From a virus (lineage: Duplodnaviria; Heunggongvirae; Uroviricota; Caudoviricetes), in IMG/VR virus record IMGVR_UViG_2563366974_000011, positions 1 through 7,001 of that record: a stretch of DNA of 7,001 nucleotides; one strand, 5' to 3'. Each line of letters opens with the position of its first letter. The first letter of the stretch is position 1. This document shows, in pieces, positions 1-3,672 of the stretch. A model generated the notes under the pieces. It ran no database searches. It was given only the letters and a program-made list of their open reading frames with translations, and was not told the DNA's origin. The position numbers and the translations under genes are program-made.

Positions 1-288
1 TTAACGGATCAACATCCAGATCAGCAGACACGCCACCACCGGCACAGCAAAATCCATCAGGCTTGCCACATCCCACGCGCGCGGATCAAAACCGCCCCAC
101 CACGGCATATTCATTCGCTTGCCATGCCCGAACATTTCAATCCAGCGATATTCTGCCTGGGTATGTTCACGCGCAATGAAGAACGTACAACCGGCTATCG
201 CTCCGTAAGCCCAGTTTCCGGTAAAAAGACCAACCAGTACCTGCGCAGCCACAGCACAAAGTGCATGAAGGAAAGGTGTTATATCCAT
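1..288 (-). CDS. Hypothetical small inner-membrane protein (95 aa, 2-3 predicted TM helices)
   Basis: ATG 286-288 preceded by AAAGGAGG. Hydrophobic segments at residues ~6-39 and ~74-95 flank an aromatic/charged loop (EYRWIEMFGHGKRMNMPWWGGFDPRAWD). TAA stop at 1-3, so the ORF is complete. No family recognised by eye. Confidence 0.6.
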   Translation of the reverse strand: MDITPFLHALCAVAAQVLVGLFTGNWAYGAIAGCTFFIAREHTQAEYRWIEMFGHGKRMNMPWWGGFDPRAWDVASLMDFAVPVVACLLIWMLIR

Positions 289-298
289 TACGCCTCCT

Positions 299-1003
299 TT
301 ATCCGATATCGCTTCGGGAAACGGATAACAACTTTAATTCTGACTCAAGTTCATCAACTCTTTCAGTCAGCTTCTGGATATGGTGAATCAGTGGAACAAC
401 CAGACGTTCGTACATTACACCTTCGGCAACAAGGCCATTGCTGGAAATGGTTTCCGGTGCATCATCTTCGTTGGCTGGTCGCCAGTGAACAAACTGAGGG
501 GCAATTTCTCCTACTTCCTCGGCAATCAATCCATAGAATCCCCAGTCACGCCTGTCATTTTCGCATTGCGACCTGTACCACACAGGGCGCATCCTGAAAA
601 TGAGATCGGCGTGCTCTGAATCTATCGTCTCTACTGAATGTTTATAGCGGATAGACGATGTTGACCGCAGCACAGACGAAATTGCAGGGTCAGGATTAAG
701 ATAAAGATTTGCCGCCGCTGTAGTTGTGCCCAATCCCCATAAATAAAACGCTTCACGGCCAGTCAGCGGGTAAAAATCTCCGCCATAACGACCACTTTCC
801 AGATCGTTCACTTCCACTTTGTTTTTCAGCTTATTATCCACTTCTGTTTTTGTGTATCTGGTACTGATATCCTGCTTTGCACTGTCCATATCAGTCTGAA
901 GCGTTGATACTTTTACGTTAATTGAGGAAATATCTTCCTTTGCCTTACTGACATCTCCCTTTAGCGTTTTGATGTCATCAGGAATTACTGTCGATGTAGC
1001 CAT
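299..1003 (-). CDS. Small fibre-like protein (234 aa): N-terminal coiled-coil segment plus C-terminal Peptidase_S74-like intramolecular chaperone domain
   Basis: ATG 1001-1003 preceded by GAGGAAG that overlaps the upstream TGA. Residues ~117-225 (SIRYKHSVETIDSEHADLIFRMRPVWYRSQCENDRRDWGFYGLIAEEVGEIAPQF...GLVAEGVMYERLVVPLIHHIQKLTERVDELESEL) follow the S74 pattern recalled from endosialidase and T5 L-shaped fibre C-termini. Residues ~10-70 are heptad-like and K/D/E-rich. Confidence 0.7.
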   Translation of the reverse strand: MATSTVIPDDIKTLKGDVSKAKEDISSINVKVSTLQTDMDSAKQDISTRYTKTEVDNKLKNKVEVNDLESGRYGGDFYPLTGREAFYLWGLGTTTAAANLYLNPDPAISSVLRSTSSIRYKHSVETIDSEHADLIFRMRPVWYRSQCENDRRDWGFYGLIAEEVGEIAPQFVHWRPANEDDAPETISSNGLVAEGVMYERLVVPLIHHIQKLTERVDELESELKLLSVSRSDIG

Positions 1004-1012
1004 TTTTCTTCC

Positions 1013-1294
1013 TCACATCCAGCTACGGAGTTGATGCTCAACAGCAACCGCGTGTTCATCGAATAATGACGATATTTGCGAATCATTAATGATGCGCACA
1101 TTTACAAAATATCCGTCCTCCTTAACACATACCGGCTCGCCATCTTCAGTCAGTTCTCCGGTTTCTTTGTACACATTACCTATCACGTCAATAAGAATAT
1201 CATCCTGCATCGACTCGTCATCATAATAGCCAATGCTCTCCATAAAGGCCGAAAAGTCGGCCCTGTCGACAAATTTGAGTGTTAAATCTTTCAT
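1013..1294 (-). CDS. Hypothetical small strongly acidic protein (93 aa), unknown function; translationally coupled to the fibre-tip frame
   Basis: ATG 1292-1294 overlaps the upstream TAA by 1 nt, with GGGGGAG about 8 nt upstream. About 21 Asp/Glu against 7 Lys/Arg. No signal peptide or TM segment. No family recognised by eye. TGA stop at 1013-1015. Confidence 0.6.
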   Translation of the reverse strand: MKDLTLKFVDRADFSAFMESIGYYDDESMQDDILIDVIGNVYKETGELTEDGEPVCVKEDGYFVNVRIINDSQISSLFDEHAVAVEHQLRSWM

Positions 1295-2043
1295 TAGATT
1301 AACTCCCCCACCTGAGCATCAGTCAATGCCTTGTGCCATATTCTGAAATTCCTGACATGACCAAATAAATGGCGTAAACCGGCTGTAGTCTGGCCTCCAA
1401 TACGGATAATTGCGGAGTTCTGAATACAGGACCATGTGGTTTTTGTTTCGCTGGATATACGCCCGTTACTTACTGCGCATGTAGACTGATCTGACTTTAC
1501 ACGCATCCCCATAACCATTTTTTCAAGCGATGCATTTTCGTTTATCCGCCTGTTAGCCCCACCAATATCGCAATAAGGAAATCCGTCGTAATCTGCTGAA
1601 GAACCGAAGCCAAGAATAATAGCCGCTCCGGTTTGATGACCGCCGGTATCAAAAACACGCGGTGCTGCATTTGGCGTTTTATACCAGTTCTTATGTACCT
1701 CACAAAGAACCGTAAAAGGTAGATTATAAAGATTATTCTTAATTGGGACTGTAACTATATCGCTTGCCCGCGTTCCTGCAGCTACCCCCGTAACAATAAA
1801 AGATGATGCGCCTGTTCCACCTTCAACCTGGGGAGTTGCGACATCCAGATAGTCTCCAGATGCTGTACTTTAACCTGTTACAGGAGCATACTGAACGAAC
1901 GCACCAACCGTGTTCTCTGTTGTTTCTGCATTAATTGTAGCCTCAAAAAAAATCCAGCCAGTAGCATCATCTTTTACAGCCCTTGCAATAATACGGTTTG
2001 TATCAGCTCCCGTTCTATCAATTCGGAGGGTTAATTTAATGCG
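1294..2043 (-). pseudogene. Start-less 3' portion of a tail-fibre gene encoding a LamG/concanavalin-A-like (jelly-roll lectin) receptor-binding tip; in frame with stf but cut off by stops
   Basis: Hand translation gives a 249-codon stop-free frame: RIKLTLRIDRTGADTNRIIARAVKDDATGWIFFEATINAE...GHVRNFRIWHKALTDAQVGELI*. It has no in-frame ATG/GTG/TTG until MVMGMR at 1516-1518 (the 74-aa track ORF). The C-terminal motif resembles the LamG consensus. Same phase (mod 3) as stf. Its TAA stop overlaps the next gene's ATG (TAATG). Confidence 0.55.
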
Positions 2044-2160
2044 TTATGTTTCTCTTAATGACGTTACAGCACCATCATAATGGTGTTCAAATATTAGACG
2101 ATACATTTTATCATCATCACTTTTTCCCAGACGGCATATAATGATAACCTATTCTTCCTC
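2044..2160 (-). other. AT-rich stop-dense junction separating the stf ORF from the in-frame fibre-tip remnant; possible recombination scar and/or internal promoter
   Basis: Hand translation of the minus strand: stops in the stf frame at 2161 (TGA), 2149 (TAG) and 2044 (TAA); three consecutive TGA in a second frame at 2111-2119; TAA at 2094 in the third frame. Holds a 20-codon ORF (MYRLIFEHHYDGAVTSLRET) and a -10-like TAATAT. Confidence 0.6.
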
Positions 2161-3672
2161 TCAAGTGACAACACATCCGGTACTGCCAGACAGCGCTACA
2201 ATGGTAAGAGCTTTACTCTTACCAACAAGCGTATCTTTTACAATAAATCTGCCATAAGTAAAACTGAAAGTATCTGTGCCTGTTTCTGTAACGTCCAGTG
2301 AAGTTGACTTATTCCACTTCGAAGGGTCTGTACTGTTAGGGAGAAGGTTCGTTCTTTGCCCCTCAATAAGCAGGCCATCACGTTCAAATCGTGGCTCGTC
2401 AATGGTAGCCTCTGTCAGCACACCAGATTTATTAATGTAAGTTGCTTTTGATGCGCGTTTAAACTTAACCACCTTGTCACCAGGCATCGTTATTTCGTCG
2501 TCACCAATAACAATCTTTTTATAAGATGGCGAAAAGCCCGTAATCATATCCAGTGAATCGTTAAACGGTATCCACACATCAGGCAGCGGCTGTAAGACAT
2601 ATTTATACGGATCTGCTGCCTGGCTTGCATACTCTCTGGCTGCGTCTTCACTTGCTTTTGCAGCGGTCTGGCTTGCAGCGGATGCTTTCGCCGAGTTCGC
2701 CGCTGCAGTCTCGCTTGTCTTTGCATTGGTTTCACTGGTTTTTGCTGCTTTTTGACTGTTGGCTGATGCAGTGGCAGAAGCAGCCGCCGCGCTTGCAGAA
2801 CCAGCTGCAGCACTCTCGCTTTGGGCTGCTGCATCCTGACTGTTTTTCGCCGCAGTTTCGCTGGCTTTGGCATTCGTTTCGCTGGTCTTCGCTGCCGTCT
2901 GGCTGGACTTTGCGTTAGTTTCACTCGTCTTCGCAGCTTTCTGGCTGTTAGCCGCAGCAGTTGCTGATCCAGCTGCTGAAGTCGCAGAACCGGCTGCCGC
3001 GCTCTCGCTTTGGGCTGCTGCAACCTGGCTGTTTTTTGCCGCAGTTTCACTGGCTTTGGCATTCGTTTCGCTTGTTTTCGCTGCCGTCTGGCTGGACTTT
3101 GCGTTGGTTTCGCTCGTCTTTGCGGCTGTCTCGCTATTTTTCGCGTTGGTTTCTGATTTTTTGGCTGCTGTCGCGGAGTTTGCCGATGCAGTCTTTGAGG
3201 TCGCTGCCGCCTGTGCACTATTAGCTGCATTCGTTTCTGAGGTTTTCGCCGCGTTCTTTGATGATGCCGCTGCAGTTTCGGATTTCTTTGCCGCCGCTGC
3301 GCTCTGAGAGGCGGCTTCGGCGTTGCGTGCCACTTCTTCCACCATTGCCTCAAAACGACGCAATGCCTCCGGCATGACATCATCTTCCGTCATGGCACCG
3401 AGAAAATCATTCAGCGTACCTGGTCTGGAACCTTCATAGACGGTAATGGTTCCGGCATGTGAAGGCGGAAAACCTTCAACCAGCAGGGTGACGCTGTACT
3501 GGCCATACTCAACATCCATGCTGTAACGCCCGGCTTCATCCGGATTTTCAGAGGCCACCGTGTTCACCAGTACCGTGGTGCTGTTACGCTTTGCCTTCAG
3601 TTGAATAGTGCAGTTCTGTATTGGTTTTCCCGCACCATCTTTCAGCACACCTGAGATTTTTACTGCTGCCAT
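2161..3672 (-). CDS. stf: Side tail fibre protein Stf, N-terminal tail-attachment domain plus Ala/Ser/Thr-rich repeat shaft (503 aa from ATG 3670-3672); terminates prematurely relative to the downstream in-frame fibre-tip remnant
   Basis: The ORF track starts at GTG 3676-3678, but the ATG two codons later has GGAG with a 5-nt spacer and gives MAAVKISGVLKDGAGKPIQNCTIQLKAKRNSTT..., matching the lambda/StfR N-terminus as I recall it. Contains long SETNAK/AAKTSE repeats. TGA stop at 2161-2163. Confidence 0.85.
   Translation of the reverse strand: MAAVKISGVLKDGAGKPIQNCTIQLKAKRNSTTVLVNTVASENPDEAGRYSMDVEYGQYSVTLLVEGFPPSHAGTITVYEGSRPGTLNDFLGAMTEDDVMPEALRRFEAMVEEVARNAEAASQSAAAAKKSETAAASSKNAAKTSETNAANSAQAAATSKTASANSATAAKKSETNAKNSETAAKTSETNAKSSQTAAKTSETNAKASETAAKNSQVAAAQSESAAAGSATSAAGSATAAANSQKAAKTSETNAKSSQTAAKTSETNAKASETAAKNSQDAAAQSESAAAGSASAAAASATASANSQKAAKTSETNAKTSETAAANSAKASAASQTAAKASEDAAREYASQAADPYKYVLQPLPDVWIPFNDSLDMITGFSPSYKKIVIGDDEITMPGDKVVKFKRASKATYINKSGVLTEATIDEPRFERDGLLIEGQRTNLLPNSTDPSKWNKSTSLDVTETGTDTFSFTYGRFIVKDTLVGKSKALTIVALSGSTGCVVT
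2813..3190. repeat. Two tandem 189-bp (63-codon) direct repeats inside stf, with nested ~21-bp sub-repeats and degenerate partial copies on both sides
   Basis: Anchor ctctcgctttgggctgctgca occurs at 2813 and 3002. Anchor ctggctttggcattcgtttcgct occurs at 2861 and 3050. Both give a 189-bp period. The protein shows AAKTSETNAKSSQTAAKTSETNAKASETAAKNSQ.AAAQSESAAAGSA... twice. Confidence 0.85.

What the first reader, a model, noticed from the sequence alone, without database searches (positions are those of the whole stretch)
1..288. Small membrane protein with a Trp-rich loop as terminal gene of the cassette
It has a strong SD (AAGGAGG) and 2-3 hydrophobic helices around the loop MNMPWWGGFDPRAWD. 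Small inner-membrane proteins encoded beside receptor-binding genes are often superinfection-exclusion factors that block DNA entry (T4 Imm, P22 SieA). I cannot place it in a named family from sequence alone.
Basis: inference. Interest (0 to 1): 0.4.

Follow-up and report, generated by a model that had tools for sequence, protein, structure and literature searches.

The report
Small membrane protein trailing tail-fibre genes
This is a real, widely conserved but uncharacterised 95-residue inner-membrane protein that many kinds of phage encode right after their receptor-binding genes; its bacterial relatives sit in capsule-synthesis loci, so it more likely alters the cell's sugar coat than blocks DNA entry.

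Summary
Window 1-288 (minus strand) is an intact 95-codon gene with an AAGGAGG ribosome-binding site, 10 nt after the preceding fibre gene. AlphaFold2 gives a confident three-helix membrane bundle (pLDDT 91) around the loop MNMPWWGGFDPRAWD. It is the last prophage gene before the attachment site.

It belongs to PHROG 1443 (unknown function) and matches nothing in Pfam, NCBIfam, PADLOC or PDB. It occurs in 1,906 of 5,426 complete E. coli genomes, up to 7 copies each, and is under purifying selection (pN/pS 0.18).

Homologues follow a tail-fibre or tailspike gene, often overlapping it, in lambda-like, P22-like, P2-like, multi-tailspike, GTA-like and Desulfovibrio phages. Non-phage homologues in Alphaproteobacteria lie in kps-type capsule loci, directly downstream of a KpsS-like Kdo-transferase gene, or next to a putative lipid hydroxylase.

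My best reading (confidence about 0.35) is an inner-membrane accessory of surface-glycolipid or capsule assembly. Phages would carry it with receptor-binding cassettes to change the glycan receptor. A DNA-entry block of the Imm/SieA type is disfavoured but not excluded. Function remains untested.

The parts
1..288 (-). CDS of the 95-aa membrane protein (stop codon at 1-3); PHROG 1443; identical to WP_000355608.1
   Evidence: ORF list; PHROG 1443 match, E 2.5e-58 over the full length; annotated as a hypothetical protein in MLI109; pN/pS 0.18
220..279 (-). Helix 1 / TM1 (residues 4-23), with near-invariant H8 and a conserved stripe H8-A12-Q16-G20-G24
   Evidence: AF2 helices; hydropathy; column counts in alignment A4
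130..213 (-). Helix 2 (residues 26-53). The N-terminal half is membrane-embedded. The C-terminal half carries the family signature (G/A)RE-x-x-QAEYRWI, with R40 and E41 invariant and Q44, A45 and E46 present in at least 59 of 64 sequences
70..129 (-). Trp-rich interfacial loop (residues 54-73: GHGKRMNMPWWGGFDPRAWD), with R58 highly conserved and W72 invariant
7..69 (-). Helix 3 / TM3 (residues 74-94), with conserved S76, D79 and P83
293..299 (-). Shine-Dalgarno AAGGAGG, 4 nt before the ATG and overlapping the stop codon of the upstream gene
   Evidence: read directly from the sequence
299..1003 (-). Upstream gene: a 234-aa tail-fibre-domain protein with a coiled coil and a Peptidase_S74 intramolecular chaperone domain
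   Evidence: Pfam PF13884, E 4.6e-6; PHROG 3299/454 tail fibre; RefSeq name
1013..1294 (-). 93-aa protein (PHROG 1361, unknown function) that lies between stf and the membrane-protein gene in lambda-like phages
1294..3672 (-). Side-tail-fibre gene (phage_tail_N plus a C-terminal ConA-like/Laminin_G_3 domain; PHROG 1419). In this window it is interrupted by 4 in-frame stops

Best explanation
Shown. The gene encodes a genuine three-helix inner-membrane protein of an uncharacterised family, and it is made as the last product of the late tail or receptor-binding operon.

Inferred topology. The positive-inside rule suggests N-in/C-out, which places the conserved RE-x-x-QAE helix end and the Trp-rich loop at the cytoplasmic face. 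H8, E41 and D79 each lie about 15 residues from the far side of the bundle, so they would form one polar cluster at that interface.

Inferred function. I think the family is an accessory factor of lipid-linked surface-glycan assembly at the inner membrane (capsule, Kdo-glycolipid or LPS-type). The reason is that its non-phage members are embedded in kps-type capsule loci, immediately after a KpsS-like beta-Kdo-transferase gene. That enzyme works on a phospholipid acceptor at the same membrane face.

Inferred role in phages. Phages move the gene together with glycan-binding receptor-binding cassettes. I propose they use it to alter or reduce the surface glycan that those tail fibres or tailspikes recognise. 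The effect would be receptor masking or conversion, or keeping new tailspikes and virions from being trapped by nascent polymer or cell debris. It would not be closing of a DNA-entry channel.
For: Real and constrained.
- There are 574 clusters at 90% identity and 435 at 50%. All are stand-alone small proteins.
- pN/pS is 0.18.
- The AF2 model has pLDDT 91.
- R40, E41 and W72 are invariant. H8, Q44, A45, E46 and P83 are conserved in at least 90% of 64 diverse members.

Position after receptor-binding genes, often with a 1-4 nt overlap.
- Phage 21 and Lambda_2E9.
- A 108-kb circular ParA-carrying phage.
- P22-like JEP4: tailspike, then this gene, then int.
- P2-like phiHAP-1: tail-fibre assembly gene, then this gene, then sheath.
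- An Aeromonas HP1-like prophage, after an S74 fibre.
- Comamonas gpJ.
- A Salmonella 160-kb contig, between two pectate-lyase tailspikes.
- Cobetia phage Carin-5.
- A Desulfovibrio pectate-lyase/S74 spike.
- A GTA-like alphaproteobacterial phage, after an End_tail_spike/S74 gene.
- Metagenomic phages.

Cellular homologues in capsule loci.
- L251/L252: KpsU, two Capsule_synth genes, GT4 genes, Poly_export, ABC2_membrane and ABC_tran. The small gene lies 82 bp after the 414-aa Capsule_synth gene.
- L247/L248/L167: Poly_export and a 406-aa Capsule_synth gene, with the small gene 49 bp downstream, then KpsF.
- L118 (Devosia), L137 (Sphingomonas humi), L148 and L168.
- In seven Sphingomonadales loci the gene is divergently paired with a membrane-anchored PhyH-like Fe/2OG oxygenase.
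- A fatty-acid hydroxylase gene also lies in L251.

Other support.
- KpsS and KpsC act on (lyso)PG at the cytoplasm-membrane interface (PMC7694667).
- Mean K+R count is 5.7 on the N-tail plus loop side against 0.6 on the other side.
- In P22-like JEP4 the gene occupies the tailspike-int interval. From my own knowledge, that is where P22 gtrABC and Sf6 oac lie.
Against: - There is no biochemical or genetic evidence of any kind, and no homology to any characterised protein.
- Only about 5-6 independent cellular lineages show the capsule context. Other cellular copies lie next to ftsZ, PBP1A, ligA or pnp.
- Canonical E. coli kps loci have no such gene, and many hosts of the phage copies may lack Kdo-linked capsules.
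- A product made late with tail genes has little time to remodel the cell surface.
- The phage 21 annotation (TMHMM) gives 2 TMDs, N-in/C-in, which would put the loop in the periplasm.
- Proximity to receptor-binding genes may partly reflect permissive module junctions where morons accumulate.
- A few phages carry the gene elsewhere: after TerL in Aeromonas PS1, before a Mu-type portal, and inside a podovirus-like core-protein block.
Confidence: 0.35

Rival explanations
1. Superinfection exclusion by blocking DNA entry at the inner membrane.
For: It is a small inner-membrane protein beside receptor-binding genes. It occupies the same slots where known exclusion or moron genes sit: the P2 Z/fun position in phiHAP-1 and the end of the tail operon in lambda-like and T1-like phages. 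Virulent phages also carry it, as T4 and T5 carry exclusion genes (my own knowledge).
Against: No Pfam or PHROG family of known function matches at E<=0.1, and PADLOC gives nothing. Phages with unrelated ejection machineries share a near-identical loop. E. coli genomes with the gene hold a median of 2 and up to 7 copies. It is coupled to late genes, and no promoter-like site was found on its strand. Stable cellular homologues lie in capsule loci. The conserved loop is predicted to be cytoplasmic.
Confidence: 0.12
2. A lysis-related membrane protein: a holin, antiholin or pinholin-like protein, or a lysis-timing modulator, made at the end of the late operon.
For: It has three hydrophobic helices in about 95 aa, like class I holins. 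Expression is late. Holins follow tail-fibre genes in T7-like and many Gram-positive phages (my own knowledge). The invariant His and Trp are reminiscent of proton-channel motifs (speculative).
Against: No holin family is matched in Pfam or PHROGs. There is no charged C-terminal tail: the protein ends at ...IWMLIR. No endolysin lies next to it in the window, phage 21, JEP4 or phiHAP-1. Phage 21 lysis is explained by its own S21/R21/Rz cassette (my own knowledge). A 35-residue loop conserved from E. coli phages to Sphingomonas chromosomes is unlike holins. Cellular homologues lie in capsule loci.
Confidence: 0.07
3. A factor for the receptor-binding proteins themselves: a membrane-anchored assembly or maturation helper for fibres or tailspikes, or a membrane-active virion component released at infection.
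For: It is tightly coupled translationally to fibre or tailspike genes in at least six lineages. It appears to travel with the 3' ends of receptor-binding genes, since HC6 keeps a decayed remnant after an S74 tail spike. S74-type fibres recur upstream.
Against: The upstream receptor-binding proteins have unrelated folds: ConA-like stf, P22-type tailspike, pectate-lyase spikes, gpJ. Only 3 of 48 of the upstream ORFs I selected carry S74. Cellular homologues occur in non-phage loci. No integral-membrane fibre chaperone is known (my own knowledge).
Confidence: 0.1
4. A cargo gene unrelated to receptors: a small membrane protein for ion or metal handling, or a host-fitness or stress factor, that accumulates at module junctions by hitch-hiking.
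For: The His/Glu/Asp cluster could bind a metal (inferred). It sits at junctions that also collect cargo such as sitABCD, ompT and effectors. It is extremely common in E. coli. The cellular contexts are heterogeneous.
Against: It repeatedly lies directly after receptor-binding genes, on the same strand and overlapping them, even inside structural operons of virulent phages. The capsule-locus association is far above what a random position would give.
Confidence: 0.15

Closest known systems
PHROG 1443 (and the fragment family PHROG 34165), phage proteins of unknown function
   Same: Full-length match, residues 1-95 to profile positions 1-95 of 97, E 2.5e-58. This is the family the protein belongs to.
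   Different: The family has no assigned function, so membership explains nothing.
Phage serotype-conversion or receptor-modifying genes next to tailspike genes (P22 gtrABC, Sf6 oac; small polymerase inhibitors such as D3 Iap). From my own knowledge.
   Same: The genomic slot matches: between tailspike and int in the P22-like phage JEP4. It is an inner-membrane protein. It is linked to glycan-binding receptor-binding proteins and, through its cellular homologues, to surface-polysaccharide loci.
   Different: There is no sequence relationship: no GtrA or acyltransferase Pfam hit. It is co-oriented and translationally coupled with the late tailspike gene rather than separately expressed. It also occurs in virulent phages. 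No glycan change has been demonstrated.
Inner-membrane superinfection-exclusion proteins (T4 Imm, P22 SieA, HK97 gp15)
   Same: Small phage-encoded inner-membrane proteins. gp15 is likewise a moron inside tail genes (my own knowledge).
   Different: No family match. It is conserved across phage morphotypes. Multiple copies occur per genome. Cellular homologues exist.
Receptor-blocking lipoproteins encoded beside receptor-binding genes (Cor of phi80/T1/N15, Llp of T5). From my own knowledge.
   Same: Position at the end of the tail-fibre module, including in virulent phages. A possible role in protecting progeny from debris.
   Different: It is not a lipoprotein. There is no lipobox (residues -3 to -1 before C11 are H-A-L), and C11 is not conserved. 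It is a polytopic inner-membrane protein, not an outer-membrane one.
kps (group-2, ABC-transporter-dependent) capsule biosynthesis loci: KpsS/KpsC, KpsF/U, KpsD/E, KpsM/T
   Same: Cellular homologues are encoded inside such loci, directly after a KpsS-sized Capsule_synth gene.
   Different: The small protein is not a recognised Kps component, and E. coli kps loci lack it. The window copy is in a prophage, not in a capsule locus.

Membership tests
PHROG 1443 | Significant full-length match to the family profile | tested here: met
   E 2.5e-58, residues 1-95 to profile positions 1-95 of 97
T4 Imm / P22 SieA / other annotated superinfection-exclusion families | Sequence match to the family model (Pfam Imm_superinfect, or PHROGs annotated as superinfection exclusion) | tested here: not met
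   Pfam gives 0 families at E<=0.1. The only PHROG hits are three families of unknown function. PADLOC gives none.
T4 Imm / P22 SieA / other annotated superinfection-exclusion families | Expression blocks DNA entry without affecting adsorption | not testable with these tools
   This needs infection assays.
Class I holins | Match to a holin family model | tested here: not met
   No holin family is matched in Pfam or PHROGs
Class I holins | Three TMDs followed by a charged cytoplasmic C-terminal tail | tested here: not met
   Three helices are present, but the protein ends one residue after helix 3 (...IWMLIR). The mean K+R count in the family's C-terminal tails is 0.56.
Class I holins | Encoded in a lysis cassette next to an endolysin or spanin | tested here: not met
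   The neighbours are tail-fibre genes and the att site. The same holds in phage 21, JEP4 and phiHAP-1.
Cor/Llp-type receptor-blocking lipoproteins | Signal peptide with a lipobox [LVI][ASTVI][GAS]C | tested here: not met
   The residues before C11 are H-A-L. The N-terminal region has no basic residue. C11 is I, V or L in most homologues.
GtrA / O-antigen acyltransferase conversion proteins | Pfam GtrA-like or Acyl_transf_3 domain | tested here: not met
   No Pfam hit at E<=0.1
Accessory protein of kps-type capsule loci (unnamed; proposed here) | Gene embedded in a locus with Capsule_synth (KpsS/C), Poly_export, KpsF/U and ABC-2 transporter genes | tested here: inconclusive
   This is met for cellular homologues in about 5-6 lineages. 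It is not met for the window copy, which is in a prophage, or for other cellular copies next to ftsZ, ligA or pnp.
Accessory protein of kps-type capsule loci (unnamed; proposed here) | Required for, or modulating, capsule or glycolipid assembly | not testable with these tools
   This needs genetics and glycolipid analysis.

The most novel reading that the evidence does not exclude
The family is an unrecognised membrane component of ABC-transporter-dependent (Kdo-linker) capsule assembly. It would be a partner of KpsS-type beta-Kdo transferases that presents or processes the phospholipid acceptor at the cytoplasmic face, using the H8/E41/D79 cluster. Phages of all tailed morphotypes would have captured it and would mobilise it together with glycan-specific receptor-binding cassettes, to rewire or shut down anchoring of host surface polysaccharide during infection or lysogeny.
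Probability: 0.12. Interest if true: 0.8.

Novelty: new variant of a known kind. Interest (0 to 1): 0.55.

Why it matters
The gene is present in about a third of complete E. coli genomes, often in several copies. It also occurs in classic phage 21, in E. coli B strains and in ST131 isolates, yet it is annotated only as hypothetical.

It has a fixed position after receptor-binding genes in sipho-, myo- and podoviruses. The loop is almost unchanged between E. coli prophages and Sphingomonas chromosomes. Its cellular relatives are linked to kps-type capsule loci. Together these make a concrete, cheap-to-test hypothesis: one gene to express or delete, followed by phage panels and glycolipid gels.

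If the hypothesis holds, the family would add a widespread phage tool for manipulating surface glycans. That is relevant to host-range prediction, phage therapy and capsule biology. It may also add a missing accessory player to the capsule pathway.

Tried and rejected
Searches that led nowhere.
- Remote homology: Pfam, NCBIfam and PADLOC gave nothing for the window protein. Pfam also gave nothing for ten distant homologues. The PDB sequence search gave only noise.
- Fusion partners: an exhaustive HMM search found only stand-alone small proteins.
- Literature: the WP accession, the PHROG id, PhiR49_1 and combinations of exclusion and tail-fibre terms found nothing about this protein. The phage 21 genome paper does not discuss it.

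Ideas rejected.
- A second copy in Carin-5: the other 105-aa ORF after a tailspike is unrelated.
- 'c65', a 412-aa ORF apparently upstream in Sphingomonadales, was an antisense artefact of my greedy ORF picking in GC-rich DNA. The real neighbour is a divergent PhyH-like oxygenase.
- Its own promoter: no sigma-70-like site was found on the gene's strand in window 1-1600. Its GC content (52%) is only mildly above that of its neighbours.
- A DGR explanation for the divergent stf patch: there is no adenine bias.
- Homology between the 93-aa upstream protein and the small proteins in the same position in Comamonas: inconclusive, best E 0.054.

Full report
**1. The observation**

On the minus strand, window 1-288 is an intact ORF of 95 codons, with ATG at 288-286 and TAA at 3-1. 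Read on that strand, the junction with the upstream gene is TAAAGGAGGCGTAATG. A perfect AAGGAGG at 299-293 overlaps the stop codon of the preceding gene and lies 4 nt before the start codon.

The translation contains MNMPWWGGFDPRAWD at residues 59-73. Hydropathy analysis shows two strong hydrophobic segments (5-23 and 76-95) and a weaker one (26-39). AlphaFold2 with 28 homologues gives a confident model, with pLDDT 91.4 and pTM 0.76. It has helices 4-23, 26-53 and 74-94 and a non-helical loop 54-73.

The gene is real:
- 574 clusters of homologues at 90% identity.
- 435 clusters at 50% identity in an exhaustive HMM search, all stand-alone proteins of about 90-130 aa.
- pN/pS of 0.18 among 49 E. 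coli alleles, with residues 36-70 almost invariant.

**2. Setting in the window**

The window is the distal end of the late operon of a lambda-like prophage, all on the minus strand:
- gpJ.
- Lom.
- A side tail fibre with phage_tail_N and a ConA-like C-terminal domain (PHROG 1419).
- A 93-aa protein (PHROG 1361).
- A 234-aa fibre protein with an S74 chaperone domain.
- The membrane protein.

Bases 1-1300 are 100% identical to several human E. coli isolates. In strain MLI109 the gene (WP_000355608.1, 'hypothetical protein') is the last prophage gene. A strong hairpin follows its stop codon. About 350 bp further on lies a fragment resembling a tRNA 3' end, with no complete tRNA gene, and then host yodB. 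'Terminal gene of the cassette' is therefore correct.

No promoter-like site lies on its strand in 1-1600. Expression therefore probably depends on the late transcript. This is an inference.

**3. Family and conserved features**

The only family match is PHROG 1443, of unknown function (E 2.5e-58). Pfam, NCBIfam, PADLOC and the PDB sequence search give nothing. Fold searches return only generic three-helix matches.

Across 64 diverse members:
- R40, E41 and W72 are invariant.
- H8, Q44, A45, E46 and P83 are conserved in at least 90%.
- D79, R58 and G29 are highly conserved.
- TM1 carries a conserved stripe H8-A12-Q16-G20-G24.

From the helix boundaries, H8, E41 and D79 each lie about 15 residues from the TM1-helix 2 turn side. 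They should therefore form one polar cluster at a single membrane interface. This is an inference, because the model coordinates could not be inspected.

The mean K+R count is 5.7 on the N-tail plus loop side and 0.6 on the other side. This favours N-in/C-out with the conserved loop in the cytoplasm. The phage 21 record instead quotes TMHMM as 2 TMDs, N-in/C-in, so topology is unsettled.

**4. Distribution**

Sequence matching the gene at megablast level (nearly all copies at least 90% identical) occurs in 1,906 of 5,426 complete E. coli genomes. That makes 3,934 copies, with a median of 2 and a maximum of 7 per positive genome. It is always annotated as hypothetical. It is present in classic phage 21 (CPT_21_24, 'putative membrane protein'), in mEp460 and in many lambda-like isolates.

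**5. Phage contexts**

The striking result is positional. The homologue lies immediately after a receptor-binding gene in very different phages:

| Phage or locus | Gene order around the homologue |
|---|---|
| Phage 21, Lambda_2E9 | stf, 93-aa gene, this gene, then convergent sitABCD |
| 108-kb circular ParA-carrying phage | J, stf, 93-aa gene, this gene |
| P22-like JEP4 | tailspike, this gene (4-nt overlap), then int on the opposite strand |
| P2-like phiHAP-1 | tail-fibre assembly gene, this gene, then sheath |
| Aeromonas HP1-like prophage | 964-aa S74 fibre, this gene |
| Comamonas prophage | 2,520-aa gpJ, 72-aa gene, this gene |
| Salmonella 160-kb contig | between two pectate-lyase tailspikes |
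| Cobetia phage Carin-5 (154 kb) | tailspike, this gene, fibre |
| Desulfovibrio prophage | pectate-lyase/S74 spike, this gene |
| GTA-like alphaproteobacterial siphophage | End_tail_spike/S74 gene, this gene |
| Metagenomic phages | after tail-fibre-like genes |

The virulent siphovirus HC6 keeps only a decayed remnant after an S74 tail spike. This suggests the gene travels with the 3' modules of receptor-binding genes.

There are exceptions: after TerL in Aeromonas jumbo phage PS1, before a Mu-type portal, and before an internal virion protein.

Many of the upstream receptor-binding proteins carry glycan-binding or depolymerase-type domains: ConA-like, pectate-lyase or endosialidase-type S74.

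**6. Cellular contexts**

In Alphaproteobacteria the family is chromosomal. The loop is nearly identical to the E. coli phage version: SREITQAEYRWIE.FG.GLRANMPWWGG.D against AREHTQAEYRWIEMFGHGKRMNMPWWGGFD.

Some copies lie next to ftsZ, PBP1A, ligA or pnp. About 5-6 independent lineages carry the gene inside kps-type capsule loci:
- L251/L252 hold KpsU, two Capsule_synth (KpsS/KpsC family) genes, GT4 genes, a fatty-acid hydroxylase, Poly_export, ABC2_membrane and ABC_tran. The small gene lies 82 bp after the 414-aa Capsule_synth gene.
- L247/L248/L167 have Poly_export and a 406-aa Capsule_synth gene, with the small gene 49 bp downstream, followed by KpsF.
- L118 (Devosia), L137 (Sphingomonas humi), L148 and L168 are similar.

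In seven Sphingomonadales loci the divergent neighbour is an N-terminally anchored protein of about 330 aa with an H-x-D...H pattern. Its only PDB profile hits are Fe/2OG oxygenases of the PhyH type. They are weak (E 0.02-0.7) but consistent.

KpsS and KpsC add Kdo to a (lyso)phosphatidylglycerol acceptor at the cytoplasm-membrane interface (PMC7694667).

**7. Interpretation**

What is shown:
- It is a conserved three-helix membrane protein.
- It is the last gene of the receptor-binding operon.
- It has a recurrent position after receptor-binding genes.
- It has cellular relatives in capsule loci.

What is inferred: the family acts on lipid-linked surface-glycan assembly at the inner membrane, and phages carry it with receptor-binding cassettes to alter the glycan their fibres or spikes bind. 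The outcome would be receptor masking or conversion, or preventing new tailspikes and virions from being trapped. I put this at about 0.35.

- Phages with different ejection machineries share the same loop.
- Genomes carry several copies of the gene.
- It is coupled to late genes.
- The loop is predicted to be cytoplasmic.
- Cellular homologues exist.

It is not refuted.

A holin-type role is unlikely, at about 0.07. No holin family is matched, the protein has no charged C-terminal tail and no adjacent endolysin, and phage 21 has its own lysis cassette (my own knowledge). A fibre or tailspike assembly role or a virion role (about 0.10) and an unrelated cargo function (about 0.15) remain open.

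**8. Comparison with known systems, and novelty**

It works most like phage conversion and receptor-masking genes placed beside tailspike genes: P22 gtrABC, Sf6 oac and small polymerase inhibitors (my own knowledge). By sequence it is a member of none of these. It is also not a Cor/Llp-type lipoprotein, because it has no lipobox and C11 is not conserved.

I rate it a new variant of a known kind. The likely functional category is familiar, but the protein family is unrelated and uncharacterised, and it has an unexpected cellular link to capsule loci. Interest is 0.55: very common, strikingly conserved, cheap to test, but with no functional data yet.

Noticed in passing
window 1816-2270 (within the stf gene, minus strand 1294-3672): This patch is about 24% divergent from every one of 5,426 complete E. 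coli genomes (best match 78.7%), while the flanks are 100% identical to MLI109. The substitutions are spread evenly over codon positions and over all 12 substitution types. They create 4 in-frame stops (codons 505, 509, 544, 602). The side-tail-fibre gene therefore looks pseudogenised, error-laden or altered. The pattern is not DGR-like, as there is no adenine bias.
   Followed up: partly
L157:4965-5120 (Escherichia phage HC6, OL362274): An unannotated, decayed 51-aa remnant of the small gene (...RRRANIPWWGGFDWRAWDLPSLLD) lies right after an S74-type tail-spike gene in a virulent siphovirus. The gene seems to be transferred with receptor-binding gene 3' modules and can then decay.
   Followed up: partly
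L001:8958-8993 (E. coli MLI109, just beyond window position 1): A 10-bp GC-rich hairpin lies immediately after the stop codon (fold of 74 nt: -25.2 kcal/mol, z -4.0). Its U tract is weak. It may be the terminator of the late operon.
   Followed up: partly
L001 about 8590-8615: A fragment resembling a tRNA 3' end (GGTTCAAATCCCCCTCTCTCCGCCA) lies between the small gene and yodB. ARAGORN finds no complete tRNA there. It is probably the att core duplication that marks the prophage end.
   Followed up: partly
L122, L123, L126, L127, L128, L137, L138 (Sphingomonadales chromosomes), divergent from the small gene: A conserved protein of about 330 aa with an N-terminal hydrophobic anchor and an H-x-D...H pattern. 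Its only PDB profile hits are PhyH-type Fe/2OG oxygenases (weak, E 0.02-0.7). It may be a membrane lipid or glycolipid hydroxylase paired with the small protein.
   Followed up: partly
L003 and L158 (Lambda_2E9, phage 21), directly beyond the small gene: A complete sitABCD iron/manganese ABC transporter is carried as convergent cargo between the small gene and the int region. In PhiR49_1 the same region holds ompT-like and DLP12-like remnants.
   Followed up: no
window 1013-1294 (minus strand): A 93-aa acidic protein (PHROG 1361, unknown function) always sits between stf and the membrane-protein gene in lambda-like phages. A weak, position-matched similarity (E 0.054) to the 95-aa protein in the same slot of a Comamonas prophage hints at a conserved three-gene arrangement of stf, small protein and membrane protein.
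   Followed up: partly
window 2500-3300 (stf gene): Internal direct repeats of about 230-250 nt at 83-84% identity encode the Ala/Ser/Thr-rich 'SETNAK...AAKTSETNA' repeat region of the fibre shaft.
   Followed up: no
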